Notes: generated by a model not told the origin, from the sequence alone. A DNA stretch of 15,556 nucleotides from a virus (IMGVR_UViG_2541047911_000001:1-15556), one strand, 5' to 3'. Numbered from the stretch's first letter, positions 1,255-15,217 are shown. Made by a program: numbers and translations.

Positions 1255-1368
1255 ATAAAACCGGGTGATGCAAAAGTAGCCATTTGATTCACAAGGCCAT
1301 TGACGCATCGCCCGGTTAGTTTTAACCTTGTCCACCGTGATTCACGTTCGTGAACATGTCCTTTCAGG

Positions 1369-1444
1369 GCCGATATAGCTCAGTTGGTAGAGCAGCGCAT
1401 TCGTAATGCGAAGGTCGTAGGTTCGACTCCTATTATCGGCACCA
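1369..1444 (+). tRNA. thrW: tRNA-Thr, anticodon CGU
   Basis: 76-nt sequence GCCGATATAGCTCAGTTGGTAGAGCAGCGCATTCGTAATGCGAAGGTCGTAGGTTCGACTCCTATTATCGGCACCA folds as a cloverleaf (acceptor GCCGATA/TATCGGC, anticodon loop TTCGTAA, T-loop GGTTCGA, CCA end); lies directly after proA as thrW does in E. coli. Confidence 0.9.
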
Positions 1445-1610
1445 TTCTAACGTCTCGCCAAGTCTACTCAAGTATTTAAAAACCTCTTATAATCCGCATG
1501 TTAGCGCCCCTTTTAGTCTTTTGACGTCTACTTAAGTACCCCAAAATCTACAGTCAATTGGGGGTACTTTTGGGGGTATTTGCTGTTCGGTTTAGTGGAG
1601 GTACCCCCAA
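1428..1610. repeat. attL: tRNA 3' end core plus integrase-upstream region, repeated at 15049-15217
   Basis: TCCTATTATCG (1428-1438) recurs at 15049-15059; the following ~165 bp (1445-1610) is near-identical to 15061-15217 with a few substitutions and one ~12-bp deletion in the second copy. Confidence 0.8.
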
Positions 1611-2825
1611 GTGAAACTCAATGCCCGTCAAATAGACACTGCCAAGCCAAAAGAGAAGGCTTACAAGCTGGCTGATGGTGGTGGTCTGTATCTCTTGGTA
1701 AAACCTAGTGGAGGAAAATATTGGCGCTTCAAGTATCGTGTAGCTGGTAAAGAGAAGCTGTTAGCACTAGGTGTGTATCCTGAAGTTACCTTGGCTGATG
1801 CTCGTGCAAAACGTGAAGAAGCTAAAAGGGGTATCGCTGGGGGTATCGATCCGATGGAAGCGAAACGAGAGGAAAAGATTGCCCGGGAAACGCAGTTAAA
1901 CAACACCTTCAAAGATATTGCCCTTGAGTGGCACAGCAGCAAATTAAAAAAATGGTCTGCTGGTTATGCTTCAGACATCCTCGAAGCCTTCAACAAAGAT
2001 GTGTTCCCTTACATTGGCAAAAAACCAATCGCCGAAATCAAACCACTTGAACTGCTGAATGTGCTGCGGCGCATCGAGGGGCGCGGTGCTACCGAAAAAG
2101 CCAAAAAAGTGAGGCAGCGATGTGGGGAAGTTTTCCGCTATGCAATTGTCACTGGACGTGCTGAGTATAACCCTGCACCGGATCTCACCAGCGCGATGCA
2201 AGGTCATGAATCTAATCATTATCCTTTCCTCACAGCCAAAGAATTACCTGATTTTTTCAAGGCATTGTCCAGTTACTCAGGAAGTGCATTGGTTGTTATG
2301 GCGGCTCGTTTACTGATTATCACCGGTTTGCGGACTGGCGAACTGCGCGGTGCATTATGGGATGAAATCGATCTCAACAAGGCTATCTGGGAGATACCTG
2401 CTTCACGGATGAAAATGCGTCGCCCTCATGTAGTGCCTTTGTCTGAGCAGGCTCTTTCGCTTATTGGGCAGATTAAAGAACTAACTGGCAATTATCCGCT
2501 TATGTTTCCCGGCCGTAATGATCCAAGGAAAACAATGAGCGAGGCTAGCATAAACCAAGTATTTAAACGCATCGGCTATAACGGAAAGGTTACTGGTCAT
2601 GGCTTCCGGCACACTATGAGCACCATTTTGCATGAGCAGGGCTATAACACCGCGTGGATAGAGACACAGCTTGCGCACGTCGATAAAAACTCAATTCGTG
2701 GCACATACAACCATGCGCAATATCTGGATGGGCGGCGGGAAATGCTTCAGTGGTACGCTGATTATATGGATTCGCTCGAGCATGGCGGAAATGTGGTGCA
2801 TGGTGAGTTCGGAAAATGCGGGTGA
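1611..2825 (+). CDS. int: P4-type tyrosine integrase (site-specific recombinase), 404 aa, GTG start
   Basis: Starts 167 bp after the tRNA; GGAGG Shine-Dalgarno at ~1596-1600; N-terminal MKLNARQIDTAKPKEKAYKLADGGGLYLLVKP is typical of P4-family integrases; C-terminal region carries catalytic-type residues (…HGFRHT…, …LAHVD…, …RGTYNHAQY…). Confidence 0.9.
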   Translation: MKLNARQIDTAKPKEKAYKLADGGGLYLLVKPSGGKYWRFKYRVAGKEKLLALGVYPEVTLADARAKREEAKRGIAGGIDPMEAKREEKIARETQLNNTFKDIALEWHSSKLKKWSAGYASDILEAFNKDVFPYIGKKPIAEIKPLELLNVLRRIEGRGATEKAKKVRQRCGEVFRYAIVTGRAEYNPAPDLTSAMQGHESNHYPFLTAKELPDFFKALSSYSGSALVVMAARLLIITGLRTGELRGALWDEIDLNKAIWEIPASRMKMRRPHVVPLSEQALSLIGQIKELTGNYPLMFPGRNDPRKTMSEASINQVFKRIGYNGKVTGHGFRHTMSTILHEQGYNTAWIETQLAHVDKNSIRGTYNHAQYLDGRREMLQWYADYMDSLEHGGNVVHGEFGKCG

Positions 2826-2953
2826 CTGGTTGAGTATACAGTAGTAGACTTTGAGCGACGAAAGAAAAGGCTGTGTCTAGGGTCGCTCCCGAAAATCCGT
2901 ACACCTCGACGGACTGGTACAGCCACTACAGTAGAGGACGCTGAGGTGTGCGT

Positions 2954-3751
2954 ATGATTGATATTCATGCCGAATTAAACGAATACAAAAAAGATTTTAT
3001 TTCTTTACGTGAATTTCTTGAGGTCGTGCTTAAGGTCGCTGGTGATGATTATGATGTTTCAGATGTCATAACTTGGATACTCAGGAGAATAAGCGGAGAA
3101 CATATCCGCCTGTACACAGTAAATGAATTTAAGCTGTTGGAATCTTTTTGTAACCCGTATCGGGATGAATTTGATAATGATGTTCTTTATAGAAATCTGA
3201 ATGCGGTTCGGAAACGTGGTTGTTTACCTGGTGAGAGGGATGAAAATGGTTTTCTGGTGTCCGGTTATTGGGAAGATCCCGAATTTGAGAACATTGGATT
3301 TATAAGGGGTGAAATTTTCGCAATTTTTCCCGATGTCCTTGACGCGTTAACGAAGCTGGAAGGCGCTAACTCTTCTGAAAATGACGAGGCACAAGGACGC
3401 GATATTGAAAAGAAAGAGTTGCGTACAGAGGATGATTTATTATCCCAAATCGCAATGCTGGAAAAAGAAAACGCAGAGTTAAGGGCAAGGATAGAGCAGT
3501 TAGAGCAAGAGCGCCCGATACACTTATATAAATACTGGGATAAAGACCCATTAGCTAAGGCTATTGAGATTAGAAACAGAGAGTGGGCCAATTACGATCC
3601 AGAAAATGATTTTGCCACCAGGGGAAATCAAGAAGCGATAACCAGGGAGCTTAAGCAGTGGGGGGCAAGTAATGCACTTGCAACGCTCATAGAGAGGACT
3701 GCCTGCCCTATTAACCGAGACAACAGCCAAAAGAACGCAAAGCCGGATTAA
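2954..3751 (+). CDS. hypothetical protein, 265 aa, acidic with a coiled-coil/leucine-zipper-like segment; possible accessory gene
   Basis: ATG at 2954 preceded by GAGG (2944-2947); the ORF track starts it at the in-frame GTG 2948. Visibly lower GC than the flanking int. Coiled-coil-like segment LLSQIAMLEKENAELRARIEQLEQE. No family recognised. Confidence 0.6.
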   Translation: MIDIHAELNEYKKDFISLREFLEVVLKVAGDDYDVSDVITWILRRISGEHIRLYTVNEFKLLESFCNPYRDEFDNDVLYRNLNAVRKRGCLPGERDENGFLVSGYWEDPEFENIGFIRGEIFAIFPDVLDALTKLEGANSSENDEAQGRDIEKKELRTEDDLLSQIAMLEKENAELRARIEQLEQERPIHLYKYWDKDPLAKAIEIRNREWANYDPENDFATRGNQEAITRELKQWGASNALATLIERTACPINRDNSQKNAKPD

Positions 3752-3766
3752 CGCACCATACCGCAT

Positions 3767-3909
3767 ACCCTGAGGGTGATTTACTGTTACCCTGAGGGTA
3801 TTTTTTTATCTTCCCCGTCAATTTTACCATCACCCTTAGGGTAGATTTCCTCCCGATTACCATCACCCTTAGGGTAGATTTCCTTCCGGTAACCATTAGG
3901 CCTGAGGGT
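3767..3909. promoter_or_regulatory. Array of five ACCCT(G/T)AGGGT palindromes, including a perfect 25-bp direct repeat, upstream of the alpA-like gene
   Basis: ACCCTGAGGGT at 3767-3777 and 3789-3799; ACCATCACCCTTAGGGTAGATTTCC at 3826-3850 and 3859-3883 (33-bp periodicity); GCCTGAGGGT at 3899-3909. Confidence 0.55.
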
Positions 3910-3978
3910 ATGAAAATATTCGTTATTTCTGTGCCATGATTACCTCGTCAAATTGAGTAGACGTTATGAGGTAAATAT

Positions 3979-4176
3979 ATGTCAAATACGCTTATTCGTT
4001 TAACAGAAGTTCAGCGTAGAACTGGATATAGCAAGGCATGGATTTATCGCCTTATGGGGCAAGGTAAATTTCCTGCATCAGTTAAAATTGGCTCGCGAGC
4101 TATTGCTTTCGTTGAGAGTGAAATTGACGAGTGGATTAATCAGCGTATTGCGGAATCACGCGGAACAGCTACCTGA
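3979..4176 (+). CDS. alpA: AlpA-family small HTH transcriptional regulator (prophage regulatory protein / excisionase-like), 65 aa
   Basis: Translation MSNTLIRLTEVQRRTGYSKAWIYRLMGQGKFPASVKIGSRAIAFVESEIDEWINQRI matches the AlpA/Xis-type pattern; GAGG Shine-Dalgarno 7-8 nt upstream; int-proximal position typical of P4-like and PICI islands. Symbol denotes family membership only. Confidence 0.75.
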   Translation: MSNTLIRLTEVQRRTGYSKAWIYRLMGQGKFPASVKIGSRAIAFVESEIDEWINQRIAESRGTAT

Positions 4177-4253
4177 TTAAATGGCTACGGGGCTATTGCC
4201 CCCAGCTATCCACCAGCAAATAAAAGTAACTTAATTCGATAGCAGGAGTTTTT

Positions 4254-5054
4254 ATGAAATTTCCAAAAATGCCCGTACAGGGGCGGGGCTTCGTTCGGCC
4301 TGAAAACCAGAATCTGCAAAATCTCGGCGAAATTATCCCGATTATTTCCGGCGTTATTGGCGGGAGTGAAACCAATATTGTTAGTGCCAGAGCGTTACAT
4401 AAGGCGTTAGGTGTAGGGCGCGTTTTCCGTTCGTGGATCAAGGGGCGCATTGAAGAATACGGCTTCACGGAAGGCGTGGATTATGAGGTTGTTGAATATT
4501 TGAGCCGACCCGATCCGGTGAGCGCAAAATCTCGCCAGCAAACAGCTCTTGAGTACATCATCACCGTGAACATGGCGAAAGAACTGGCGATGGTCGAACG
4601 TACCGAACAGGGCCGCGCCGTTCGCCAGTACTTTATCAAATGCGAGGAGGAGCTACACAAGGTTGCGCCTGTTCGTTCCGCAGCGTTACGCCGGGAACTG
4701 AAAGCCCGTATCACAGTTGCCAGCTACTTTAAGCCAATGTGTGCCGCGCTGGAGGCGTACCGGGCTGAACTGGGTAAAAACACACTCCAGCACCACTACA
4801 CCACGGAAGCGAACATGCTGGCGCGTATCGTGCTGGGTGGCATGACTGCAAAACAGTGGGCACTGGCGAACGGCATTACAGGCGAACCACGCGACCACAT
4901 GAGCACGTTGCAGCTTGAGCACCTTTCTTACCTTGAGCAGAGCAATATCACGCTGATTGAGTTAGGCCAGGACTACCACCAGCGGAAGGCTGAATTAATT
5001 CGTCTTTCGCAGCGTTGGTTAGCCCGTCGCATGGAGGAAAACAGCCATGTGTAA
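4254..5054 (+). CDS. AntA/AntB-like phage antirepressor-domain protein, 266 aa
   Basis: CAGGAG Shine-Dalgarno before the ATG; N-terminal region (…SARALHKALGV…FRSWIKGRIEEYGFTEGVDYEV… and …TALEYIITVNMAKELAMVERTEQGRAVRQYFIKCEEEL) resembles the AntA antirepressor N-terminal domain; C-terminal half unassigned. Confidence 0.6.
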   Translation: MKFPKMPVQGRGFVRPENQNLQNLGEIIPIISGVIGGSETNIVSARALHKALGVGRVFRSWIKGRIEEYGFTEGVDYEVVEYLSRPDPVSAKSRQQTALEYIITVNMAKELAMVERTEQGRAVRQYFIKCEEELHKVAPVRSAALRRELKARITVASYFKPMCAALEAYRAELGKNTLQHHYTTEANMLARIVLGGMTAKQWALANGITGEPRDHMSTLQLEHLSYLEQSNITLIELGQDYHQRKAELIRLSQRWLARRMEENSHV

Positions 5055-6354
5055 CGCTCTGACCGTTACAAAAAGAGAAAGCGCCCCGTTGCCGGAGCGC
5101 CTTTGTGAACGAATAGCCTACTGCGCCATATTGCTTACTGTCTACGAGGCAGATTATAGCGTTGTGGTCGCACAGAGTGAAGGCGCTGATCACCGTTACT
5201 ACAGCACGCCAGAAATGCAGAATATTTTGCTGCAAAATGTCGTTGGTCACACTGTCCGGAAAGCAAAAAATTTTGCTGGTGGCGCGACTGATGCGATTTT
5301 GTCAGGTCGCCAGGTGCTGATCAATCTGATGTCTGATTTCGTTCTGGATAAAACAAAGGCGACCGCAGAGGGCCGCCAGTGGGAAAGCTACATACTTGAA
5401 CGCATCGCCAACAATGCCAGATTTGCGGCTGGTGGGCAATGTGTCAGCTTTGCACCAATGACTCTATGTTTAACTGAGGGTCATTATGGTGAATATGCTG
5501 GCTTGCTGGTGGGCTATTCCTGCTCTTTAACATTGCCATGCCGCGATGTTTTACAGGTATGCGACCCCATTTTTGTGCGCCTGTACTCTTTAAGGAATTT
5601 CTCAAGGATAAACGCACAGGGCGCGAATCTGTTTGACTCATGCTCGTACGCTATCTTTCTGCGCTGTCTTTTCCGTGCCGGTGATGGTGTATTGGTTGAT
5701 TCTTTGTTGGTCATGGCGCAGCCCTGTAAAACGATGCACCGTAGTTCCTCACACCACGGCGCTGGTGATGGTTACTCCTGTTCTTTGGCCTTGCGGCGCT
5801 GGCGGTATTCAACTTCTCGCTTTAATGCTGCTGTTACAAACTGCCCTGTACTTTCACCAGGCATTTTTACCGCCTCAACATTGTTCATAACTTCATGCGG
5901 AACCCTTGCCGCAACTGTTTGTGATTTTGCGTTTACTGCTTTTGTCGCCATGTTGTGTACCCCTTACAAAAAACAAATGCAGTATGCAGGAAAAAAAATA
6001 AGTGTTCAACACTTGACGTGTTTAACACCTGGGCTTAAATTGGTGTTCAACACCTTGTTGATGCAAGGTGCAGAAACGACAACGCCCCGCAGTGGTGGCA
6101 CACATGCAGGGCGTCTAACCACCAACGATAGCAAGAGTATCGAGGTAGCTATGAGAAATCATACCACACACCCGCAAGGGCGGGACTCGCACAACCTGAA
6201 TAAATACATCTGGCGTTTTATCGCCCTGAGCACGGCACAACCGCGCGTAATTCACATCGAGGCCACCAGCGAACAGGAAGCACGCCAGCAATCTCCTGAT
6301 GGCTGCGTGATGGTATTCGCCGCCCGTATTCGCCAGGAGGTGGAACATGTGTAA
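5047..6354 (+). CDS. Long ORF (435 codons) of doubtful integrity: plausible gene start at 5047 with a protein-like first ~140 codons; the central part is probably not coding
   Basis: Start is translationally coupled to the upstream gene (ATGTGTAA overlap, GGAGGA Shine-Dalgarno). Codons ~150-370 are Cys/Ser/Thr-rich with many rare codons (AGG, ATA, CGG, TTA) and overlap an antisense gene and an operator cluster. Only the last ~67 codons look coding again. Confidence 0.3.
   Translation: MCNALTVTKRESAPLPERLCERIAYCAILLTVYEADYSVVVAQSEGADHRYYSTPEMQNILLQNVVGHTVRKAKNFAGGATDAILSGRQVLINLMSDFVLDKTKATAEGRQWESYILERIANNARFAAGGQCVSFAPMTLCLTEGHYGEYAGLLVGYSCSLTLPCRDVLQVCDPIFVRLYSLRNFSRINAQGANLFDSCSYAIFLRCLFRAGDGVLVDSLLVMAQPCKTMHRSSSHHGAGDGYSCSLALRRWRYSTSRFNAAVTNCPVLSPGIFTASTLFITSCGTLAATVCDFAFTAFVAMLCTPYKKQMQYAGKKISVQHLTCLTPGLKLVFNTLLMQGAETTTPRSGGTHAGRLTTNDSKSIEVAMRNHTTHPQGRDSHNLNKYIWRFIALSTAQPRVIHIEATSEQEARQQSPDGCVMVFAARIRQEVEHV
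5772..5951 (-). CDS. Ribbon-helix-helix-like small DNA-binding protein (59 aa), candidate repressor, antisense to the long ORF
   Basis: Minus-strand ATG at 5951, stop TAA at 5774-5772; translation MATKAVNAKSQTVAARVPHEVMNNVEAVKMPGESTGQFVTAALKREVEYRQRRKAKEQE has a strand-helix-helix pattern and host-like codons; AAGGGG Shine-Dalgarno upstream; divergent from the operator cluster at 6002-6053. Below the 60-aa cutoff of the ORF track. Confidence 0.5.
   Translation of the reverse strand: MATKAVNAKSQTVAARVPHEVMNNVEAVKMPGESTGQFVTAALKREVEYRQRRKAKEQE
6002..6053. promoter_or_regulatory. Three 11-bp palindromic operator-like sites GTGTT-N-AACAC overlapping a rightward promoter-like TTGACG-17-TAAATT
   Basis: GTGTTCAACAC at 6002-6012 and 6043-6053, GTGTTTAACAC at 6018-6028; -35-like TTGACG 6013-6018 and -10-like TAAATT 6036-6041. 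Confidence 0.55.
6151..6354 (+). CDS. small hypothetical protein (67 aa); likely the real first gene of the rightward operon (3' end of the long ORF)
   Basis: ATG at 6151 with GAGG 5-8 nt upstream, about 100 bp downstream of the operator/promoter cluster; ends …IRQEVEHV with an ATGTGTAA overlap into the next gene. Confidence 0.4.
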   Translation: MRNHTTHPQGRDSHNLNKYIWRFIALSTAQPRVIHIEATSEQEARQQSPDGCVMVFAARIRQEVEHV

Positions 6355-6571
6355 TGCAACATGGCCTGATGCAGCGGTAGACGCTATCAAAACGCTGATG
6401 GATTCACTTATTGAGATTTCTGCTATCGCTGGTGTGGCGCATAAACACGCAGCCAGAGAATCAGAATGCATCTCCCATTATTTAGCATTTGTGCAGCTAA
6501 AAGCCGATCAGGCACTGGATAAGGCCGGAAAAATTATCATGGCTGATGTGCAGGAGGTGCACCATGCATAA
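6347..6571 (+). CDS. small hypothetical protein, 74 aa
   Basis: AGGAGG Shine-Dalgarno ~8 nt upstream; start overlaps the upstream stop (ATGTGTAA). Confidence 0.5.
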   Translation: MCNATWPDAAVDAIKTLMDSLIEISAIAGVAHKHAARESECISHYLAFVQLKADQALDKAGKIIMADVQEVHHA

Positions 6572-6929
6572 CCTGTCAATTTCTGACCTTAACAGCATTC
6601 AGTTTGACGAGAAATTTACCGGGCAGTTGCTGGTCAATGTGGAGAACGGGCGCATAGTGCGTAATTACCACCTGCCGGATGGTGCAATTGCCGGAAGCGT
6701 TGAAGCATTGCTGGAACTGGCGGAACGTGCGCGACTGATTAAGCCGTCAACGAGCCATCACGATGATGATCTGCATTTTACCGGGCGTATGGTGAGTCAC
6801 TACGAAAACGGCGTTGAAGTATCCCGCGAACGGCTGCGTGATGATTGCTGTTTCGGCACACTGCCGGAATTTATCGAGTTGCTGACCAGTTGCGGTTATC
6901 AGGTCATTCAGGGGGGTAAACATGCGTGA
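6564..6929 (+). CDS. hypothetical protein, 121 aa (MHNLSISDL…)
   Basis: ATG at 6564 preceded by GGAGG and overlapping the upstream stop (ATGCATAA); preferred over the track's 6546 start, which would place the Shine-Dalgarno inside the coding region. Confidence 0.55.
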   Translation: MHNLSISDLNSIQFDEKFTGQLLVNVENGRIVRNYHLPDGAIAGSVEALLELAERARLIKPSTSHHDDDLHFTGRMVSHYENGVEVSRERLRDDCCFGTLPEFIELLTSCGYQVIQGGKHA

Positions 6930-7155
6930 TGATCGTTTTAATTCCCTGAAACGGGAATTTGATGGCGCACCGGAAGATGCAGCGGGCGCATTGTTGAGCG
7001 TTGCTGACATGATGAAAGCTGCATATTTTCTTATCAATACCAGTGGCTACAAGTCAGAGGGTGAAATGATTCTTAGTATTGCGTCGGACTATGCGGAATA
7101 TGTGGCAGAGACGCGTTACAGAAGAAAATTCACGGAGGATGTAAGCCATGCATAA
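6922..7155 (+). CDS. small hypothetical protein, 77 aa
   Basis: ATGCGTGA start/stop overlap with the upstream gene; G-rich Shine-Dalgarno. Confidence 0.5.
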   Translation: MRDDRFNSLKREFDGAPEDAAGALLSVADMMKAAYFLINTSGYKSEGEMILSIASDYAEYVAETRYRRKFTEDVSHA

Positions 7156-7348
7156 TCATGAAGCGCATGTACCCGTAGTGCTTAATGTGCCAGATGATTT
7201 CACCGGACGCGTACTGGTTTACCTGGATAAAGGGAAAGTGAAATCACAATGCCGACTGAAAAGTAATGAGATTGTTGGTTCTCCTGAATTTTTTTCTGAA
7301 CTTTGTATTCGTGCGGAAATAAAACCGGAACTGCTGACAGGAAAATAA
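7148..7348 (+). CDS. small hypothetical protein, 66 aa
   Basis: ATGCATAA overlap with the upstream stop; GAGGATG Shine-Dalgarno. Confidence 0.5.
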   Translation: MHNHEAHVPVVLNVPDDFTGRVLVYLDKGKVKSQCRLKSNEIVGSPEFFSELCIRAEIKPELLTGK

Positions 7349-7352
7349 AACC

Positions 7353-7643
7353 ATGAAAAAGAAAAATTCTGGCTTTACTGCCAGCGGCCTCTCTCGGCCT
7401 GAAATCCGCCCCGGTGATATTTTCCGGGACACCAGACGCGGGGGACGGGTGGTTATTCGTCACGTTACGCCAGGCAATATCACCTACCGCCGTGAGGCTT
7501 ACGAATATGACTGCGTAATGCCGCGCCGTCAGTTTGATCGTGATTTTATTGTGGTGGAAAACAAACAACAGGCAGTGGCGAGACGTGCAGCCACGAATAT
7601 TAAAAAAATCCGGGCAATGTTGGTTGCGGGAGGTAAGAAGTGA
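7353..7643 (+). CDS. small basic hypothetical protein, 96 aa
   Basis: AGGAAA Shine-Dalgarno; Arg/Lys-rich; stop overlaps the GTG start of the replication gene. Confidence 0.5.
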   Translation: MKKKNSGFTASGLSRPEIRPGDIFRDTRRGGRVVIRHVTPGNITYRREAYEYDCVMPRRQFDRDFIVVENKQQAVARRAATNIKKIRAMLVAGGKK

Positions 7644-9445: not shown

Positions 9446-9473
9446 TACGAAATTTATAAGTTGAAACTTAAAA

Positions 9474-9809
9474 GTAGACGGTTGGTAGACAGATACACTT
9501 AACCCTCTACCAACCATCTACTAATTAATGTTTTGAATTATATAGGTATTTTTAATGTGGTAGAGAGGTGGACAGTTTATTTTATATTTCTAAACCACGG
9601 GGGTATCTAAAAATAGATAGTTATGGGTTCATTTTTAAAATTTTTCTTTTAACTATCTACACTGTCTACCATTTAGTAAAAGTCATTAATTATCAATGTA
9701 TTAATACTGTAGAGAGTTGGTAGACAGTTTGCAGATTGTTTTTTTGTTATGTATTAATAACATTAAATAAATCAAACAATTATATCGGTAGACAGTTGGT
9801 AGACAGTTG
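9474..9809. repeat. Origin-like AT-rich region with multiple GGTAGACAGTT-type iterons in both orientations
   Basis: GTAGACGGTTGGTAGACAG 9474-9492 with inverted partner CTCTACCAACCATCTAC 9505-9521; GTGGTAGAGAGGTGGACAGTT 9557-9577; ATCTACACTGTCTACC 9655-9670; CTGTAGAGAGTTGGTAGACAGTT 9707-9729; GGTAGACAGTTGGTAGACAGTTG 9787-9809; A/T-rich spacers, e.g. 9620-9650. Confidence 0.65.
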
Positions 9810-9814
9810 TAACG

Positions 9815-10357
9815 ATGGGGCAAAGCATGACTAAGCTGACCATTAACAGAAAACCGAAAGGCATTTACGGCACGCCGCAGAAAACGACGCAGGCGGCGCA
9901 GGAGCAGGATAAAACCACATCGGCGCATAAAGTGATGCCCGGTAACCAGAAAGCGCAGCAAAAGCCCACAGGGGCGACACCGTGGCGGCATATGACCAAA
10001 CGCCAGCGCAAAAACCGCAGGCGCGTTAACCGCCTCACTGAGTTGTGGCCTGACTTATTCAGCCGGGAAGCACCGAAGCCGCTTAAGGTGGGGATATTCG
10101 ACGACCTGATGCAGGATCTCGCCGTCAGGGGGCTGGCATTCGGGCCAGGGGCATTGCGTGCGACGCTGGCATCTTATGCGCAGTGTCCGCACTATTACCG
10201 CGCCTTAATGGCTGGTGGGGTACGCTACGACCTGAAAGGCCAGCCGTGCGGCGAGGTGACACCACAGGAACAACAGGACGCAGAAACGCGGCTGGTGGCG
10301 CTGAATGAGAAGCGCAAACGCCAGCGCCGGGCAGCAAAGGAGACAATAGGCGCATGA
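9815..10357 (+). CDS. ProQ/FinO-domain RNA-binding protein with a basic N-terminal extension, 180 aa
   Basis: Residues …LWPDLFSREAPKPLKVGIFDDLM…LRATLASYAQCPHYYRALMAGGVRYDLKGQPCGEVTPQEQQDAETRLVALNEKRKR align by eye with the E. coli ProQ N-terminal FinO-like domain (…RPLKIGIFQDLV…[35 protein letters not shown]…); an alternative start at ATG 9827 is possible. Confidence 0.75.
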   Translation: MGQSMTKLTINRKPKGIYGTPQKTTQAAQEQDKTTSAHKVMPGNQKAQQKPTGATPWRHMTKRQRKNRRRVNRLTELWPDLFSREAPKPLKVGIFDDLMQDLAVRGLAFGPGALRATLASYAQCPHYYRALMAGGVRYDLKGQPCGEVTPQEQQDAETRLVALNEKRKRQRRAAKETIGA

Positions 10358-10641
10358 TTCACGACAGCAAAGCGGAAGCACTGGAAGCGCGTGGTCTGTA
10401 CCGGAGAGCGGCGGCGCGGTGGGCTGAGGTCATCATGCTGGCGAATGATGACAAGGCACGGGAACAGGCGGCAAAACGTCGCGCGGAATGTATCCACAAG
10501 GCAGCACGCCCACCAGCAAAGCAGGATAATTTCGGGGAGATGCGCGAAACCATCAGCCGGGCACATGCCGGAATGGGATTACATCAGCCCAATGGTAAGG
10601 CATTCAGGAAATATCCTGGATCGAAAAATTGCAGTCAGTGA
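10354..10641 (+). CDS. PerC-family-like small transcriptional activator candidate, 95 aa
   Basis: Start overlaps the upstream stop; N-terminal MIHDSKAEALEARGLYRRAAARWAEV resembles, from memory, the conserved start of PerC/Pch-type proteins of prophage-like elements; tentative. Confidence 0.45.
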   Translation: MIHDSKAEALEARGLYRRAAARWAEVIMLANDDKAREQAAKRRAECIHKAARPPAKQDNFGEMRETISRAHAGMGLHQPNGKAFRKYPGSKNCSQ

Positions 10642-10644
10642 CGG

Positions 10645-10672
10645 AGGCCGGGATTTTTCCCGGCCTTATTGC
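10645..10672 (+). terminator. Rho-independent terminator-like hairpin after the perC-like gene
   Basis: GGCCGGG (10646-10652), loop ATTTTT, CCCGGCC (10659-10665), followed by a T-rich tract. Confidence 0.55.
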
Positions 10673-10751
10673 ATTTCATTAATTGCAATATTTATTGCTA
10701 TCATTTCATTTTGTGCAATTGTTGTGGTTGTTATTATTCGGGAGAAAAATC

Positions 10752-10919
10752 ATGAAAGGTCACGGAGTAAAGCCAGTTTTACTTTCCCGGAGGCAGATTG
10801 AAGCCCTGCAACGTATCCAGGACGAAGAGCGTCAGAAATCTGTGCTTGGTGTGGCGCCGTCGATTCATGTTATTGCCCGGCAACTGATGGATAAGGCACT
10901 TAAAGAGGTGAGACTGTGA
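10752..10919 (+). CDS. small hypothetical protein, 55 aa, possible DNA-binding regulator
   Basis: ATG at 10752 with GGGAGAAAAA Shine-Dalgarno; the ORF track's upstream start at 10683 lacks a ribosome-binding site and runs through the promoter region; translationally coupled to the next gene. Confidence 0.45.
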   Translation: MKGHGVKPVLLSRRQIEALQRIQDEERQKSVLGVAPSIHVIARQLMDKALKEVRL

Positions 10920-11188
10920 AATTAAATATCAGAGTGGATAAACGCCAGCTATGGCAGAAAAAAGAGAACAGCGAGGCATTCAGGGCGTTGCTGGTGGAAA
11001 ATCTTCAGCACCGGTTCAGTGGAGAGTTGCCTGATGCTCTAGGGAAGAAACTTGAATCCCTGACGGTGGAAATTGGCGATTATGGCTTTGTTGATGTTGA
11101 AAGCACGACTGCCAACACAGAAATCGTAAAACAGGTCGTCAATGATGTAATGAAAACCACGCTTAGCCAGCCATCCTGGCGCAACTGA
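10916..11188 (+). CDS. hypothetical protein, 90 aa
   Basis: GTGA start/stop overlap with the upstream gene; no family recognised. Confidence 0.5.
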   Translation: MKLNIRVDKRQLWQKKENSEAFRALLVENLQHRFSGELPDALGKKLESLTVEIGDYGFVDVESTTANTEIVKQVVNDVMKTTLSQPSWRN

Positions 11189-11287
11189 ATCAGTAAGGGG
11201 CGGTTATTGCCCCTTTCCTCCATACCCACAACGCATTCCCTTTCCGCATGAAATTATTTTTTATCGTATACGCATGAGGTGAGCTAC

Positions 11288-11815
11288 ATGTTGATGAGTA
11301 AAGCCGAATACGCCAAATACAAAGGCGTAAGCCGCCAGACAGTTTACGACTGGATCGAGAAAGGCGAAGTGATCATGTCTGGCAAAAAAATTGATGTGGA
11401 GGCGACAGAGCAGCGGAACAGCCCACCGGCACAAGGGAAAGACACCGTTTCTGAAATGTGGCCAGAAAGAACGCTGGAAATGACGTGGGGCGAGTTCTGG
11501 AAAGCAGTTAAGGCCAGAGACGGTAAAATTCCTTCGCCAGTAACGGACGATGACATACAGCAGCGTGTGCTGTATGCAGCCGGGGAATTAGGCTGGGAAG
11601 TGCACTTTCTTGATGATGGTGCTATCTGCCTTGAGGATGATGAAGGGCAGCATTACTTTGAAAAATACAATTTGCGAGGTAATGCCAGGCTGGCAATTCG
11701 TATGCTGCGTTGCGAACTCTGCTATGTTGCAGGTGATTATCCCGATGAACTGGAATCATGGAGTGAAACCGGGCTAAACGCCCTGGCTGAATGGGAAAAA
11801 TCAGACCATCAATGA
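11288..11815 (+). CDS. HTH-domain protein, 176 aa; candidate small-terminase-like / packaging-redirecting DNA-binding protein
   Basis: ATG at 11288 with GAGGTG Shine-Dalgarno 9 nt upstream (track uses GTG 11279); N-terminus MLMSKAEYAKYKGVSRQTVYDWIEKGEV is a winged-HTH pattern like the lambda Nu1 N-terminus and the AlpA/MerR class; followed immediately by a repeat array. Confidence 0.55.
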   Translation: MLMSKAEYAKYKGVSRQTVYDWIEKGEVIMSGKKIDVEATEQRNSPPAQGKDTVSEMWPERTLEMTWGEFWKAVKARDGKIPSPVTDDDIQQRVLYAAGELGWEVHFLDDGAICLEDDEGQHYFEKYNLRGNARLAIRMLRCELCYVAGDYPDELESWSETGLNALAEWEKSDHQ

Positions 11816-11818
11816 CAT

Positions 11819-12023
11819 CAAAAAGTGTCAAGTTGAGCAGCTTGCCAGGTTGACACTTTACACTCTGAACGCGAAAAAGTGTCAACCTCGCTGTAAACCC
11901 CGCCGTTACTGGCTTTGCGCCAGATTTACCACGTCAAAAAACCGAAAAATCGCGAAAAGTGTCAAGTTGCCATGCTTAGAAATGCTAAGGTTTGATAAGG
12001 TTTTTCGCGAAAAAGTGTCAACC
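11819..12023. repeat. Four direct copies and one inverted copy of (CG)AAAAGTGTCAA(G/C): candidate packaging (cosB-like) or regulatory site
   Basis: Direct copies at 11821-11833, 11874-11887, 11955-11969 and 12010-12022; inverted copy TTGACACTTT at 11850-11859. Confidence 0.5.
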
Positions 12024-12053
12024 AGCCCCCTAAGATTTCCTAAGGTGTAAACC

Positions 12054-12233
12054 ATGACCATCACCGAAGCCGATTTGCTGGAGATGATCCGCAGCATTGC
12101 CGGAATCAAACAACCAGCAAGCAAAATTAACAGGTGTTCAGCGCCTGTTTCCGTTGTGCTGCAACAGGAACGCCACCAGCATGATGATGTGAGGCCGTAT
12201 CAGTGGCGGAAACCGAACAGGCTGCGACGGTGA
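12054..12233 (+). CDS. possible small ORF, 59 aa, upstream of the cargo gene
   Basis: ATG at 12054 with AAGGTG 7 nt upstream; just under the ORF-track cutoff; hairpin-plus-T-run at ~12273-12296 downstream; coding status uncertain. Confidence 0.3.
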   Translation: MTITEADLLEMIRSIAGIKQPASKINRCSAPVSVVLQQERHQHDDVRPYQWRKPNRLRR

Positions 12234-12673
12234 GCGGGGCGTTATAGTAAGCCAACAGCCAAGCCAAACATTAAGCCTAAGGGTAGGGCTTTTTTGTGGC
12301 TGGTGGCGTAATGCCAACATTGTTACATGATGTTTTGAGGTATTATCTGCATGTTCGTGGTGAGGAACCACCAGAACTGATGAGCTTTTGTTTATGCATG
12401 TACTGCATGAAAACTGTCCTATAAAGTGGGGGTAGGTGTGCTGAGGAGAACATTGTGAGCTACGCCAAATTAAATTGTGTCGGGGGTGAACAAGTTTCTT
12501 GATAGGTGTCAGTAGGCACCTATAGTTATAGGCTTCTTCAATTTTGTGTGCACAATATTTTGTATTGATTGGGGATAGGGTTGCACGCAAAATTAAAAAA
12601 TGTATATTTATTAACGTGTATTTGATGATTTTTAAAAAAAATATTTCTCTATGTTTATCATAAAAGGTTTTTT

Positions 12674-14272
12674 ATGAGCGTGGCAATAAAAACAATGACA
12701 CCAATGTCATATTCTATAAAAGTTGATGCGATTAAGAAAAGATTGTCATATTTTAGTGATGTTTCTTTTTTGAGAAATTTTTATGAACACTTCCAAAAAG
12801 TAAGGGATGTCGAGGTGGGTATTGTTTCCAATTTCCCTTGGTGTTGCTATCTGGCAATGAAATGGAAGTTTTGCATGAAGGAAAAAAAGCCTGCAAAAGA
12901 AATGAGTAAAAATGATTTTATTGATATTATCAACTTAATCTATAACTTGCAACTAGAAGCATCTAATTTAATCGTTGATGATAAAGTTATGCTAAGCCTT
13001 AGACGAATGGTGATAAATCAGTTGCTTTATCAATCAACTGATAAATTTAATGCTAATTCATTAACAAGACAGTATATTTGGTATTGCTTGAATGATGAAT
13101 CATATTATAAAGATAAGTTTTTAGAATGTACTGGTTTACATTTGGAAAGCTATTACAAAATGGCATGTTATTTTACTGCTATTTCATGTATTAATCCTGA
13201 TGTAGAATCAGAGGTTATTCCATTTAAACACTTGATAATAAACTTGGTTCCGATATTTGGTCCGGAACAAGTGAAAAAATTTTTGGAATTAACATGCTTA
13301 AAAATTGATGGTGTAAGAGATTTTATTGCCCCATATAAATTGGATAAAAACATTACCGCTGAGTATTATGAAGATACACCATTCCTCAGTAAACCAATGT
13401 TTTTAGATGGCGATGGTGTAGTGATATTATGCAAAAGAATCATGAAGTCAGGGTTTGTCAACCTAGTTCCAGAATTGTTCAAGCAGGTCTATAAGGAATC
13501 TTATAAAGAAAAATTTGGTAAGACGATGGAACTTTATATTTCTCGCTTTCTTGATAAGTACAATTATAACTTTAAGACTGAAAGGGAGGTTAAGAAGATT
13601 TATAGTGATAATGCAATAAAAAATTGCAAGTCCGTAGATTTTGTTATTTCAGAGGGAGATTCAATAGTTTATATTGACTCGAAGGCAATAGAGCCTGCAA
13701 AGTTCGTTAAAACATCTAATAATGCTCAGTTGCTAAAGGAAAGGTTGAATAAGAGTTTTATTAAAGGGATTTATCAAGGTCAGGAATGTGCTTTTAACTT
13801 AAATAAAATAGAGATGAGAAAACCATCTTCGAAAGATTCAATGTTAATTGTGGTGCATCGGGATCATCATATATCAAATGCAATGGTTGTGCAGGATTTT
13901 ATTAACCCTGATTTATCAACTGAGTTATCTGAAAAATATCATAGTACCCCCATTGATCTAAAAAGAATTTACTATATAACAATTGATGAGTTCGAATTAT
14001 TACTTATGATGTGTAAACAGAAAGAACTATCTATTAATGAGTTTATTGATATGTGTGTGGAAAAAGATTCATTCCCTCATACTCAGAAGTCTAATCTAAG
14101 CATGCACATATATGAATTTGCACCAGAGGGTATTGATGATGATCAATTGATTGTAAAAGGAAGAGACTTACTGATTGATGATGTTATTGAAAATATGAAA
14201 GAGAGTGCATCAAAATGGTCTGGGAAAGTTGATATGTATCTTAAAATAAAAGATTATATTTTTAATTGGTAA
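12674..14272 (+). CDS. AT-rich orphan protein of unknown function, 532 aa; candidate anti-phage defence / abortive-infection effector with a possible PD-(D/E)xK-like core
   Basis: Long uninterrupted ORF with a composition very different from the rest of the island; AAAAGG Shine-Dalgarno 8 nt before the ATG; AT-rich promoter-like leader; perfect hairpin downstream; last gene before attR. Confidence 0.8.
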   Translation: MSVAIKTMTPMSYSIKVDAIKKRLSYFSDVSFLRNFYEHFQKVRDVEVGIVSNFPWCCYLAMKWKFCMKEKKPAKEMSKNDFIDIINLIYNLQLEASNLIVDDKVMLSLRRMVINQLLYQSTDKFNANSLTRQYIWYCLNDESYYKDKFLECTGLHLESYYKMACYFTAISCINPDVESEVIPFKHLIINLVPIFGPEQVKKFLELTCLKIDGVRDFIAPYKLDKNITAEYYEDTPFLSKPMFLDGDGVVILCKRIMKSGFVNLVPELFKQVYKESYKEKFGKTMELYISRFLDKYNYNFKTEREVKKIYSDNAIKNCKSVDFVISEGDSIVYIDSKAIEPAKFVKTSNNAQLLKERLNKSFIKGIYQGQECAFNLNKIEMRKPSSKDSMLIVVHRDHHISNAMVVQDFINPDLSTELSEKYHSTPIDLKRIYYITIDEFELLLMMCKQKELSINEFIDMCVEKDSFPHTQKSNLSMHIYEFAPEGIDDDQLIVKGRDLLIDDVIENMKESASKWSGKVDMYLKIKDYIFNW

Positions 14273-14276
14273 TTAA

Positions 14277-14304
14277 GCAAGGGTGTTATTATCAACACCC
14301 TTGC
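14277..14304 (+). terminator. Perfect 11-bp-stem hairpin after the cargo gene (terminator-like; no strong T-run)
   Basis: GCAAGGGTGTT (14277-14287), loop ATTATC, AACACCCTTGC (14294-14304). Confidence 0.5.
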
Positions 14305-15048
14305 TCATAGTCTTACAATATTAAATGTTGTGTTTTTTATTTATATATTTTATTGCCCGTCAAGCTATTAATTCATCTCGTTGTTTGAGATAGGTTGAGC
14401 ATTTGTATTTTTTTATCAATTTTATCTGTATGAGCTTAAGCAGCTTCAATAATATCTGCGTTAAATTACGCTTCATTCAGAGACGTGCTTGCTATTGACA
14501 TGTAATCCATGTGCAACAAGATTCCTGCCATAACTTATGCGTTTCAGAGCCGAATCATGGACTGCTTTAAGTCATTTTTGTAGGGAAAACATGTTCACAT
14601 GTCAGCACTGATTTGTTTCATCACATATCCACTATCTCGAATTCCTGTGTCGATAGATGAATGCAGACGGAAATATGTAAATTTTGTGCACGCTCTGCTA
14701 TTAAGCGAAAACGAGCGTGGGTATATCAACTAATAATTGCCCTCATTAACATAGGTGGTGGCGGGTATAATCTCTGTAACCCAGTTGTTCGTGACTACCC
14801 ACCTCGTCAAATTTTCACACCCGCGAAATAAAAAATACTTCACGCTAGTGGTTATCCTTGGGCATCCACCAGCCCTTCATCATTGCCTGCCGGTGAGGCT
14901 GAGGCTCGAAGAAAAAGAGTGCTAGATAGTCGATTTTTGCCTGGTTTGGGATAAGGGAAAATTTATTGGGGGTACTTTTGGGGGTATCTATAAAAATGAA
15001 ATATGAAAATATCATTAAATATCAATGTATTTGTTGTTTATGTTTTGT

Positions 15049-15217
15049 TCCTATTATCGCCCATTCTAACGTCTCCCCAAGTCTACTCAAGTATTTAAAA
15101 ACCTCTTATAATCAGTATATTAATGCCCCTTTTAGTCTTTTGACGTCTATTTAAGTACCCCAAACTCTACAAGCAATTGAGGGGATTTGCTGTTCAGTTT
15201 AGTGGAGATACCCCCAA
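15049..15217. repeat. attR of the first island / left junction of a second tandem island
   Basis: TCCTATTATCG at 15049-15059 followed by a near-identical copy of the sequence found after thrW at 1445-1610. Confidence 0.8.

What the first reader, a model, noticed from the sequence alone, without database searches (positions are those of the whole stretch)
1428..15059. Complete ~13.6-kb satellite-type island inserted in thrW
The element is bounded by direct repeats of the tRNA 3' end. It carries a P4-type integrase next to the tRNA, an AlpA regulator, a single large P-loop replication protein followed by iterons, a possible packaging module, and compositionally foreign cargo. That gene order matches phage-inducible chromosomal islands and P4-related satellites of Enterobacteria. 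I recognise no capsid-size-determination or helper-derepression genes such as sid, psu, delta or epsilon, so the element may depend on a helper through other means or be a distinct satellite lineage.
Basis: partly seen in the sequence, partly recalled or inferred. Interest (0 to 1): 0.6.

Follow-up and report, generated by a model that had tools for sequence, protein, structure and literature searches.

The report
Phage-satellite defence island in thrW
This is a real, cleanly bounded 13.6-kb mobile island of the known E. coli "phage-inducible chromosomal island" (PICI) kind, inserted in the thrW tRNA gene and carrying the anti-phage gene GapS1; it is a new mosaic member of that kind, and how it gets packaged is unknown.

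Summary
The segment 1428-15059 is a discrete insertion: removing it in silico gives a proA-thrW junction found at 100% identity in many E. coli genomes, including Nissle 1917. The island carries an intact P4-family integrase with arm-type repeats at both ends. It also has AlpA, an AntA antirepressor, an Icd-like gene, a D5_N/DUF5906 helicase-type replication protein followed by iterons, ProQ/FinO and PerC. The AT-rich cargo is a GapS1 anti-phage nuclease.

The backbone is homologous and syntenic to EcCICFT073. The integrase and att site are those of EcCIMP1. Both are experimentally verified PICIs. It is not P4-like: it has no sid, psu, delta or epsilon, no P2 cos site and no CI/C4 RNA.

No known packaging determinant is present: no lambda cosN, Rpp, TerS or capsid genes. 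SatelliteFinder would therefore call it a three-of-five "Type C" PICI. At the position where EcCICFT073 has rppA sits a conserved winged-helix protein (orf178) followed by five AAAGTGTCAA repeats. This is a candidate DNA-recognition module of unknown role.

The right-hand repeat continues into a truncated second integrase, the head of a vat-island remnant, so the two islands sit in tandem.

Verdict: a new member of a known kind, of modest interest.

The parts
1369..1444 (+). thrW, tRNA-Thr(CGT); the integration target. Its 3' end is supplied by the island's left end.
   Evidence: ARAGORN; Rfam tRNA 71.8 bits
1428..1438 (.). attL core, TCCTATTATCG
   Evidence: Same core as reported for EcCIMP1 (PMC11773190).
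1557..1610 (.). Candidate arm-type integrase sites: TTGGGGGTA twice direct (1558, 1570) and once inverted (1602).
   Evidence: Conserved in L001, L005 and L006. Their role as arm sites is inferred.
1611..2825 (+). Tyrosine integrase of the P4 family, 404 aa, intact
   Evidence: Pfam Arm-DNA-bind_3, Phage_int_M and Phage_integrase. 96.5% identical to EcCIMP1 Int and 43% to P4 Int.
2870..2937 (+). int-alpA RNA motif (Rfam RF02996)
   Evidence: 45.5 bits against a gathering score of 35.8. Same hit in L005.
2948..3751 (+). orf267, function unknown. It belongs to a swappable cassette (2873-3958) between int and alpA.
   Evidence: No Pfam, PHROG, PADLOC or NCBIfam hit. The cassette is replaced in L006.
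3767..3889 (.). Four ACCCTNAGGGT palindromes, including a 33-nt tandem duplication. Either terminator-like hairpins or protein-binding sites.
   Evidence: Confined to the orf267 cassette and not conserved with alpA.
3979..4176 (+). AlpA-family regulator, 65 aa
   Evidence: Pfam Phage_AlpA, E = 2.4e-19. 81% identical to EcCIMP1 AlpA and 37% to P4 Vis.
4254..5054 (+). AntA/AntB-type antirepressor, 266 aa
   Evidence: Pfam AntA; phrog_5817
5514..5951 (-). Leftward unit of two small genes: a 66-aa hypothetical (5514-5714) and a YlcI/YnfO-family protein (5772-5951).
   Evidence: Conserved in EcCICFT073 at 78% and 61%. RefSeq annotation of relatives. Minus-strand terminators at 5377 and 5103.
6151..6354 (+). 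Icd-like protein. This is the only real coding part of the 435-aa ORF at 5047-6354.
   Evidence: NCBIfam phage_ICD_like 71 bits. 92% identical to EcCICFT073. L005 annotation.
6347..7643 (+). Five small overlapping early ORFs; the last is DUF4222.
   Evidence: PHROG families 5146, 340, 24341 and 285; Pfam DUF4222
7640..9445 (+). Pri-Rep: a replication initiator with an SF3 P-loop helicase, 601 aa
   Evidence: Pfam D5_N, DUF5906 and Pox_D5. 43% identical to EcCICFT073 Pri-Rep over full length. 49% identical to P4 alpha over 448 aa, helicase and C-terminus only.
9473..9808 (.). Putative replication origin: TGGTAGACAG iterons in both orientations flanking an AT-rich stretch
   Evidence: Same position (3' of pri-rep) as the tested PICI origins (PMC6092414).
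9815..10357 (+). ProQ/FinO-family RNA-binding protein
   Evidence: Pfam ProQ, E = 4.9e-23
10354..10641 (+). PerC-family regulator, followed by a terminator at 10644-10667
   Evidence: Pfam PerC, E = 3.4e-32; terminator
10752..11188 (+). orf55 and orf90, conserved unknowns that begin the right-hand module
   Evidence: No family hits. Conserved together with orf178 in 127 genomes.
11279..11815 (+). orf178: an N-terminal Xis/TerS/MerR-type winged helix plus an unknown alpha/beta domain. It occupies the position of rppA in EcCICFT073.
11822..12021 (.). Array of five exact AAAGTGTCAA repeats (four direct, one inverted). It ends exactly at the boundary between backbone and cargo.
   Evidence: Five of five copies fall here; none of 200 shuffles reached five. 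Conserved next to orf178 homologues in 34 of 36 close IMG/VR loci (the other two loci end at the gene) and in several homologues at 50-57% identity.
12054..12233 (+). orf59, related at its C-terminus to phrog_1561, the family of the last EcCICFT073 gene
12674..14272 (+). GapS1 anti-phage PD-(D/E)xK protein, 532 aa, 30.6% GC: the cargo
   Evidence: NCBIfam antiphage_GapS1 442 bits against a cut-off of 320. Motif D322...D335-S-K337. Function described in bioRxiv 10.1101/2023.03.28.534373.
14965..14987 (.). Right-end copy of the arm-type repeats (TTGGGGGTA twice)
   Evidence: Exact 23-nt repeat of 1557-1579
15049..15059 (.). attR core TCCTATTATCG, followed by a degenerate tRNA 3' end (CCCA in place of GCACCA)
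15218..15556 (+). Context, not part of the island: a truncated integrase (112 codons, then a stop) at the head of a vat/MarR island remnant
   Evidence: 99% identical to the Arm-DNA-binding pseudogene next to EcCIMP1 in MP1. Same arrangement in APEC IMT5155.

Best explanation
The element is a Gram-negative, AlpA-type phage-inducible chromosomal island (PICI). It is a mosaic: the integration module is that of EcCIMP1, the regulation and replication backbone is of the EcCICFT073 type, and a defence-gene slot lies at the right end.

Likely mechanism, with shown and inferred steps marked:
1. The P4-family integrase inserted the circular element into the 3' end of thrW at the core TCCTATTATC(G). 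The insertion is shown by comparison with unoccupied sites. The catalytic activity is inferred from 96.5% identity to the EcCIMP1 integrase.
2. The island stays silent until a helper phage switches on alpA. AlpA then activates the rightward operon from antA through the Icd-like gene and small ORFs to pri-rep. This is inferred from EcCICFT073 experiments.
3. Int excises the island. Pri-Rep, an SF3 helicase-type initiator, replicates it from the iterons immediately downstream of its gene. This is inferred by homology and position.
4. The DNA is packaged in helper capsids through a determinant that is not one of the known ones. The best candidate is the conserved winged-helix protein orf178 acting on its adjacent array of AAAGTGTCAA repeats. 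This step is speculative.
5. In the lysogen, the cargo GapS1 nuclease protects the host and the island against other phages by capsid-triggered growth arrest. This is inferred from family membership and an intact active-site motif.
For: - Precise insertion: the unoccupied junction is found at 100% identity over 738 nt in many genomes.
- Both ends carry the core and the arm-type repeats.
- The integrase is intact and 96.5% identical to that of EcCIMP1, which excises and is transduced by phage Kapi1 from the same att site.
- Gene order matches EcCICFT073 with protein homology: int, alpA, a leftward ylcI-like unit, Icd-like gene, small ORFs, DUF4222, pri-rep, ori, PerC.
- Iterons lie directly 3' of pri-rep.
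- There are no phage structural or lysis genes, and the size is 13.6 kb.
- All backbone ORFs are intact. They are 99.3% identical over 10.6 kb to copies in unrelated strains. The same modules occur at three or more att sites, which implies recent mobility.
- The slot after the repeat array holds different defence genes in relatives: a PARIS-like AAA_21+DUF4435 pair, DUF4747, a NACHT protein and GapS1.
- GapS1 scores above the NCBIfam cut-off.
Against: - No induction, excision, replication or transfer was or could be observed here.
- No recognised packaging or hijacking function is present: no lambda cosN (with a positive control in EcCICFT073), no P2/P4 cos, and no Rpp, TerS or capsid homologue.
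- Only three of the five SatelliteFinder PICI core components are present. The authors of that tool regard this class as ambiguous (PMC10085698).
- The packaging region shares no DNA with any phage in the collection searched, so no helper can be named.
- The attR tRNA fragment has one more deleted base than in relatives. If strand exchange occurs in CACCATT rather than in TCCTATTATC, this could impair excision.
Confidence: 0.72

Rival explanations
1. The element is an immobilised, domesticated remnant of a PICI. It now serves only as a chromosomal defence island carrying GapS1 and can no longer be mobilised.
For: - No packaging determinant is recognisable.
- It lacks the extra module between PerC and orf55 that many relatives carry.
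- The repeat array has five copies against the usual six.
- attR carries an additional 1-nt deletion compared with relatives.
- The exact attR junction is not seen in 5426 complete genomes.
Against: - Every backbone ORF is intact, whereas relatives show frameshifts in antA, PerC or ProQ.
- The backbone is 99.3% identical to copies in other strains.
- The short PerC-to-orf55 junction is a natural variant present in 15 genomes and coincides with a terminator.
- Both att arms are complete.
Confidence: 0.15
2. The element is an integrative mobilisable element that moves by conjugation. The orf178 protein and its repeat region would serve as a relaxosome accessory factor and oriT, with a plasmid or ICE as helper.
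For: - Elements built on int, alpA and a replicase have recently been shown to be conjugatively mobilised (PIMEs; bioRxiv 10.64898/2026.01.12.698999).
- A ProQ/FinO-family protein is present.
- A repeat and inverted-repeat array lies next to a small DNA-binding protein.
Against: - There is no relaxase, traJ, trbJ or trbL.
- The 10640-12240 region has no DNA similarity to any of 72,556 plasmids.
- The backbone is homologous to phage-mobilised EcCICFT073.
- orf178 homologues occur in Klebsiella elements (their own integrase and D5-type primase) lying beside prophage tail/late genes.
Confidence: 0.07
3. The element is a P4-like satellite that depends on a P2-type helper.
For: The integrase is of the P4 family (43% identity). 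An AlpA/Vis homologue is present (37%). The helicase and C-terminal part of P4 alpha is matched at 49%.
Against: - No sid, psu, delta or epsilon homologue: only three window proteins hit the P4 genome.
- No P2/P4 cos site, even with up to 3 mismatches.
- No C4/CI RNA or isrK, although the same scan at gathering threshold finds them in P4, EcCIMP1 and a Dickeya island.
- Gene order differs from P4.
Confidence: 0.03
4. The element is a degraded remnant of an ordinary prophage.
For: Several small early-gene families are shared with phages in PHROGs, as are the AntA and Icd-like genes.
Against: - There are no structural, lysis, terminase or repressor genes.
- Megablast finds no match to 50,697 phage records.
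- The same compact organisation recurs in over 100 genomes at several att sites.
Confidence: 0.03

Closest known systems
EcCICFT073, an E. coli PICI mobilised by lambda and phi80 (Fillol-Salom 2018 and 2019; PMC6092414, PMC6739421)
   Same: - Same order: int, alpA, a leftward ylcI-like unit, Icd-like gene, small ORFs, DUF4222, Pri-Rep, ori, PerC, and a last gene of phrog_1561 type.
- Protein identities: Icd-like 92%, orf77 56%, PerC 52%, DUF4222 49%, Pri-Rep 43%.
- A small winged-helix protein sits at the rppA position and gives the same weak phrog_57 TerS hit as RppA.
   Different: - The integrase is only 25% identical and the att site differs (roxA-phoQ region against thrW).
- The window has no capsid-like or decoration genes, no RppA and no lambda cosN. 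EcCICFT073 has cosN at two sites.
- The window has ProQ/FinO where EcCICFT073 has an SSB.
- The window also has an AntA antirepressor and a GapS1 cargo.
EcCIMP1, an E. coli MP1 PICI with helper phage Kapi1 (PMC11773190)
   Same: - Same insertion site (tRNA-Thr between proA and yagU) and same att core TCCTATTATC.
- Int 96.5% identical, AlpA 81%, AntA 58%, PerC 47%.
- The same truncated-integrase vat/MarR island lies immediately downstream.
- Both would be SatelliteFinder 'Type C' elements.
   Different: - EcCIMP1 is 20 kb.
- It has a TOPRIM/DUF927 primase, an Ash protein, P4-type C4 and isrK RNAs, and P22-like ejection-protein and DUF2824 genes shared with its helper.
- None of these are in the window.
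- EcCIMP1 lacks orf178 and its repeat array.
Satellite phage P4
   Same: - Integrase family with an arm-binding domain, inserted in a tRNA gene.
- An AlpA/Vis-type small regulator.
- An SF3 helicase with origin-binding domain, and iterons.
   Different: - No sid, psu, delta or epsilon.
- No cos site and no CI (C4) RNA immunity.
- No alpha-type N-terminal primase domain detected.
- Different gene order.
Defence hotspots of phage satellites (PICI immune cargo; P4 hotspots such as PARIS)
   Same: A single variable slot next to attR holds different known or candidate defence genes in otherwise near-identical backbones: GapS1, an AAA_21+DUF4435 pair, DUF4747 and a NACHT protein.
   Different: The GapS1 family was first described in GMT islands of Vibrio, not in PICIs.

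Membership tests
Gram-negative PICI (features listed in Fillol-Salom 2018) | Integrase at one end and a specific att site flanked by direct repeats | tested here: met
   Int at 1611-2825. Core repeat at 1428-1438 and 15049-15059. The unoccupied junction is found at 100% identity in many genomes.
Gram-negative PICI (features listed in Fillol-Salom 2018) | AlpA-family regulator downstream of int | tested here: met
   Pfam Phage_AlpA, E = 2.4e-19
Gram-negative PICI (features listed in Fillol-Salom 2018) | Pri-Rep replication gene with an iteron origin immediately 3' of it | tested here: met
   D5_N/DUF5906/Pox_D5 protein, 43% identical to EcCICFT073 Pri-Rep. Iterons at 9473-9808. Origin function itself was not tested.
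Gram-negative PICI (features listed in Fillol-Salom 2018) | No phage structural or lysis genes; size about 10-15 kb | tested here: met
   13.6 kb. No such families in Pfam or PHROGs.
Gram-negative PICI (features listed in Fillol-Salom 2018) | Packaging or hijack determinant: helper cos plus Rpp, terS, or capsid-morphogenesis genes | tested here: not met
   No lambda cosN or P2 cos. No Rpp, TerS or capsid homologue. Only a positional and fold-level analogue, orf178.
Gram-negative PICI (features listed in Fillol-Salom 2018) | Induction by a helper phage, and high-frequency transfer in phage particles | not testable with these tools
   Requires experiments. It has been shown for the relatives EcCICFT073 and EcCIMP1 only.
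SatelliteFinder PICI model (de Sousa 2023) | Five core components; types A and B need at least four | tested here: not met
   Three components were recognised here (int, alpA, pri-rep). No capsid-morphogenesis or small-terminase component was found, so the element is Type C, as EcCIMP1 is. SatelliteFinder itself was not run.
P4-like satellites | The psu-delta-sid operon and epsilon | tested here: not met
   tblastn of all window proteins against the P4 genome hits only int, vis and alpha.
P4-like satellites | P2-type cos site and CI (C4) RNA immunity | tested here: not met
   No cos site with up to 3 mismatches. No C4 or isrK hit at E <= 0.1. Both are detected in P4.
Capsid-forming PICI (cfPICI) | Own capsid, portal, head-tail connector and TerL genes | tested here: not met
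   None detected.
PIME / integrative mobilisable elements | trbJ/trbL, traJ or a relaxase, repA, and an oriT resembling the helper plasmid's | tested here: not met
   No such genes. No plasmid DNA similarity in 10640-12240. Criteria taken.
GapS1 anti-phage family (cargo gene) | Score above the NCBIfam NF047931 cut-off, and an intact PD-(D/E)xK motif | tested here: met
   442 bits against 320. D322 and D335-S-K337 have the same 15-residue D-to-K spacing as the published D313/K328. Defence activity of this allele was not tested.

The most novel reading that the evidence does not exclude
orf178 and its adjacent array of (A)AGTGTCAA repeats may form a previously undescribed DNA-recognition module. 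It would replace Rpp and cos in one lineage of enterobacterial PICIs. It could direct packaging by helpers that are not lambda-like, or it could act as a centromere-like maintenance site for the excised replicon. The pairing is conserved from E. coli to homologues at 50-57% identity. A related motif occurs in Klebsiella elements that lie beside prophage tail/late genes.
Probability: 0.25. Interest if true: 0.55.

Novelty: new member of a known kind. Interest (0 to 1): 0.3.

Why it matters
The element shows how modular E. coli PICIs are. One integrase and att module (thrW) can carry quite different replication and hijack modules. One backbone can carry GapS1, a PARIS-like pair or other defence genes in the same slot, so such islands spread phage defence between strains.

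The practical open point is that this widespread backbone (about 3% of complete E. coli genomes) has no known packaging determinant. Working out what orf178 and its repeat array do would help explain how the many 'Type C' PICI-like elements are mobilised, or whether they are mobilised at all.

Tried and rejected
- **lambda/phi80-type cos:** no GGGCGGCGACCT with up to 2 mismatches. The positive control finds two sites in EcCICFT073.
- **P2/P4 cos:** none.
- **Helper or oriT identification through shared DNA:** no match of the island, or of 10640-12240, to phage records or plasmids. No tblastn hit for orf178 in phages.
- **Circular or terminally redundant IMG/VR contigs as evidence of encapsidation:** no terminal repeats in the loci held. 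This is uninformative, because most are prophage-style predictions.
- **ACCCTNAGGGT palindromes as AlpA operators:** rejected. They travel with the orf267 cassette, not with alpA.
- **The 435-aa ORF at 5047-6354 as a gene:** rejected. Only its C-terminus (Icd-like) has homologues, and relatives annotate two minus-strand genes there.
- **The 380-aa and 107-aa genes of relatives as capsid and decoration homologues:** no Pfam or PHROG support.
- **Two Rfam calls** failed on the size limit.


Full report

The window opens with proA (1-1254) and thrW, a tRNA-Thr(CGT) at 1369-1444. The sequence TCCTATTATCG from the T-arm/acceptor region of the tRNA occurs at 1428-1438 and again at 15049-15059. An 11-nt repeat alone would be weak evidence, so I tested the boundaries directly. 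I joined window 1200-1444 to 15064-15556 and searched 5,426 complete E. coli genomes. The 738-nt in-silico excision product is present at 100% identity and full coverage in many strains, including Nissle 1917, ATCC 25922 and clone D i14.

An exact 23-nt repeat, ATTGGGGGTACTTTTGGGGGTAT, lies just inside both ends at 1557-1579 and 14965-14987, with a third inverted TTGGGGGTA at 1602. These positions are conserved in relatives. They are probably arm-type integrase sites, but that is inferred.

Two refinements apply. First, the right-hand copy of the tRNA end is degenerate. The tRNA reads CCTATTATCGGCACCATT, relatives have CCTATTATCGCACCATT at attR, and the window has CCTATTATCGCCCATT. Second, the similarity does not stop at the core. 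It continues at 90-93% identity to the end of the window, because a second integrase gene begins at 15218. That gene stops after 112 codons. It is 99% identical to the truncated 'Arm DNA-binding' pseudogene that heads the vat/MarR island next to EcCIMP1 in strain MP1 and in APEC IMT5155. From my own knowledge, this is the thrW-associated VAT pathogenicity island described in avian pathogenic E. coli. The island under study therefore sits in tandem in front of an older, decayed island that used the same site.

**2. Gene content**

All genes run rightward unless marked.

| Coordinates | Feature | Note |
|---|---|---|
| 1611-2825 | Integrase, 404 aa, intact | Arm-DNA-bind_3, Phage_int_M and Phage_integrase domains |
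| 2870-2937 | Rfam int-alpA RNA | 45.5 bits against a gathering score of 35.8 |
| 2948-3751 | orf267 | No family hit |
| 3979-4176 | AlpA | |
| 4254-5054 | AntA/AntB antirepressor | |
| 5514-5714, 5772-5951 (minus strand) | 66-aa hypothetical and a YlcI/YnfO-family protein | Minus-strand terminators at 5377 and 5103 |
| 6151-6354 | Icd-like gene | |
| 6347-7643 | Five small overlapping ORFs | The last is DUF4222 |
| 7640-9445 | Pri-Rep, 601 aa | D5_N, DUF5906 P-loop and Pox_D5 domains |
| 9473-9808 | Iteron cluster | Eight TGGTAGACAG-type copies (up to 2 mismatches), all four exact ones here, around an AT-rich stretch |
| 9815-10357 | ProQ/FinO-family protein | |
| 10354-10641 | PerC | Terminator at 10644-10667 |
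| 10752-10919, 10916-11188 | orf55 and orf90 | Unknown |
| 11279-11815 | orf178 | See section 5 |
| 11822-12021 | Five exact AAAGTGTCAA repeats | |
| 12054-12233 | orf59 | |
| 12674-14272 | 532-aa cargo gene | 30.6% GC against 47.8% for the backbone |

The 435-aa ORF at 5047-6354 is an artefact. Only its last ~90 residues have homologues, and relatives annotate the minus-strand genes there.

**3. The cargo**

The 532-aa protein scores 442 bits against NCBIfam 'antiphage_GapS1', whose cut-off is 320. It keeps a PD-(D/E)xK signature, D322...D335-S-K337, with the same spacing as the catalytic D313/K328 of the founding Vibrio protein. That family was shown to give capsid-triggered growth arrest and phage protection, including for an endogenous E. 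coli homologue (bioRxiv 10.1101/2023.03.28.534373). PADLOC 2.0 (2023) has no model for it.

**4. What family is the island?**

Comparison with P4 finds only three hits. These are Int (43%), Vis/AlpA (37%), and the helicase plus C-terminal part of alpha (49% over 448 aa). There is no sid, psu, delta or epsilon, no P2/P4 cos site, and no C4/CI or isrK RNA at E <= 0.1. An Rfam scan at gathering threshold finds those RNAs in P4, in EcCIMP1 and in a Dickeya island. The element is not P4-like.

EcCICFT073 is the PICI shown experimentally to be induced through AlpA, to replicate through Pri-Rep and its ori, and to be packaged through cos and RppA by lambda and phi80 (PMC6092414, PMC6739421). It has the same gene order as the window, with clear homology: Icd-like 92%, orf77 56%, PerC 52%, DUF4222 49%, Pri-Rep 43% over full length, and the two leftward small genes at 78% and 61%.

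The integration module matches EcCIMP1, a PICI shown to excise and to be transduced by phage Kapi1. EcCIMP1 sits in the same tRNA-Thr between proA and yagU with the same core TCCTATTATC (PMC11773190). Identities are Int 96.5% and AlpA 81%. EcCIMP1's interior is otherwise different: a TOPRIM/DUF927 primase, ejection-protein genes and C4 RNA.

The window's island is therefore a mosaic of known PICI modules.

**5. Distribution and modularity**

Window 1-10655 is 99.3% identical to strain GCM74-1-1 (L005). The segment 10674-12021 is about 94.6% identical there, and 99.1% identical in APEC IMT5155. The cargo region 12049-15065 is 99% identical to APEC E123 and strain 537-20. Only 6 of 5,426 genomes cover at least 80% of the island, and none has its exact attR junction.

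The orf55-orf90-orf178-repeat module occurs in 167 genomes, 127 of them at nearly full length. It is found at thrW, at yicC-dinD in ABU 83972, and at abgR-smrA, each time behind a different integrase. I see three variable slots:

- Between int and alpA: the orf267 cassette, 2873-3958, is replaced in L006.
- Between the PerC terminator and orf55: empty in the window and in 15 genomes. Other relatives carry 380-aa plus 107-aa unknowns, or a 192-aa protein plus a DUF2213 protein. EcCICFT073 has capsid-like and decoration genes there.
- After the repeat array: GapS1 here; an AAA_21+DUF4435 pair (PARIS-like architecture), DUF4747 or a 662-aa RNA-binding protein in E. coli relatives, and a NACHT protein in the corresponding position of a metagenomic relative of a Dickeya island.

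This last slot is the defence-hotspot behaviour already described for satellites.

**6. The unresolved part: packaging and hijacking**

No capsid, scaffold, portal, terminase or Rpp homologue is present. Under SatelliteFinder logic the element has three of five PICI core components and is Type C. The tool's authors regard that class as ambiguous, and EcCIMP1 falls in it too.

orf178 occupies the position that rppA has in EcCICFT073, after the morphogenesis slot and before a phrog_1561-type last gene. It gives the same weak N-terminal hit to the TerS family phrog_57 as RppA does. However, it has no sequence similarity to RppC (positive control).

The protein family is spread across Enterobacterales. 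In integrase-AlpA-primase islands of E. coli and Dickeya it is the last backbone gene before the cargo. In Klebsiella it occurs in elements that have their own integrase and a D5-type primase and lie beside prophage tail/late genes.

Its helix-turn-helix sequence, GVSRQTVYDW, is nearly invariant. An array of four to six (A)AGTGTCAA repeats follows the gene in 34 of the 36 close IMG/VR loci examined; the other two loci end at or just after the gene. The array also follows the gene in several homologues that are only 50-57% identical. The Klebsiella type has ATGAACAC repeats upstream instead.

I infer that the array is the protein's binding site. Whether it serves packaging-site recognition, regulation, excision or partition cannot be decided here. 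No phage or plasmid in the collections shares DNA with this region, so no helper can be named.

**7. Verdict**

The P4 affinity is limited to Int, AlpA and part of alpha. The 'distinct lineage' idea is not supported, because this backbone is common. Satellite behaviour itself (induction, packaging, transfer) is inferred.

The island looks intact: every backbone ORF is full length, whereas relatives show frameshifts. The lack of any known packaging determinant and the extra deletion in the attR tRNA fragment leave a real possibility, about 15%, that this copy is immobile.

Novelty: a new member of a known kind. Interest is modest at 0.3. The orf178-repeat module is the one feature that could repay experimental work.

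Noticed in passing
window 2870-2937 (+): An Rfam 'int-alpA RNA' (RF02996) scores above its gathering threshold and lies between int and orf267. It sits at the left edge of a cassette (2873-3958) that is swapped out in relative L006, which has no such hit at gathering score.
   Followed up: partly
window 15049-15066; L001, L005, L006 and L002 attR sites: The tRNA 3'-end fragment at attR is damaged in every relative: a 1-nt deletion of G, more in L001, and a second deleted base in the window. If strand exchange occurs in TCCTATTATC, excision would leave a defective thrW. A paper on helper-embedded PICIs notes such attR tRNA damage as a PICI trait (PMC10111431).
   Followed up: partly
window 15218-15556 (+): A second integrase of the P4 family is truncated after 112 codons. 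It is 99% identical to the pseudogene heading the vat/MarR island in MP1 and IMT5155. The window therefore ends inside a decayed tandem island (VAT-PAI type).
   Followed up: yes
window 5047-6354 (+): The largest ORF in this stretch (435 aa) is not a gene. Only residues ~347-435 (Icd-like) have homologues. The rest overlaps two conserved minus-strand small genes and their terminators.
   Followed up: yes
window 3767-3889: Four ACCCTNAGGGT palindromes, two of them inside a 33-nt tandem duplication, lie between orf267 and alpA. They occur only in relatives that carry the orf267 cassette, so they are probably not AlpA operators. Their role is unknown: terminators, or sites for the orf267 protein.
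   Followed up: partly
window 10641-10752; L005 18229-20080; L013 10478-12005; L004 10463-12497: A second variable slot follows the PerC terminator. It is empty in the window. In L005 and L006 it holds 380-aa plus 107-aa proteins with no family hits, in L013 a 192-aa protein plus a DUF2213 protein, and in EcCICFT073 capsid-like and decoration genes.
   Followed up: partly
L009 and L010 (Klebsiella), around 10001-10516: orf178 homologues (54% identity) occur in Klebsiella elements that have their own 292-aa integrase and a D5-type primase and lie immediately beside prophage tail/late genes. A different repeat (CATGAACACC, three or four copies) lies upstream of the gene rather than downstream.
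   Followed up: partly
L002 24600-24827; L011 3237-3477; L003 8420-8692: P4-type C4 antisense RNA and isrK are present in EcCIMP1 and in a Dickeya integrase-AlpA-primase island as well as in P4. They are absent from the window and from its close relatives L005, L006 and L008 (EcCICFT073 itself was not scanned). The PICI-like islands examined therefore differ in whether they carry this immunity RNA.
   Followed up: partly
window 7640-8090 (Pri-Rep residues 1-150): The N-terminal ~150 residues of Pri-Rep match only an unknown-function PHROG (phrog_2850). They do not align with the primase domain of P4 alpha. Whether this protein is really a primase is not established.
   Followed up: no
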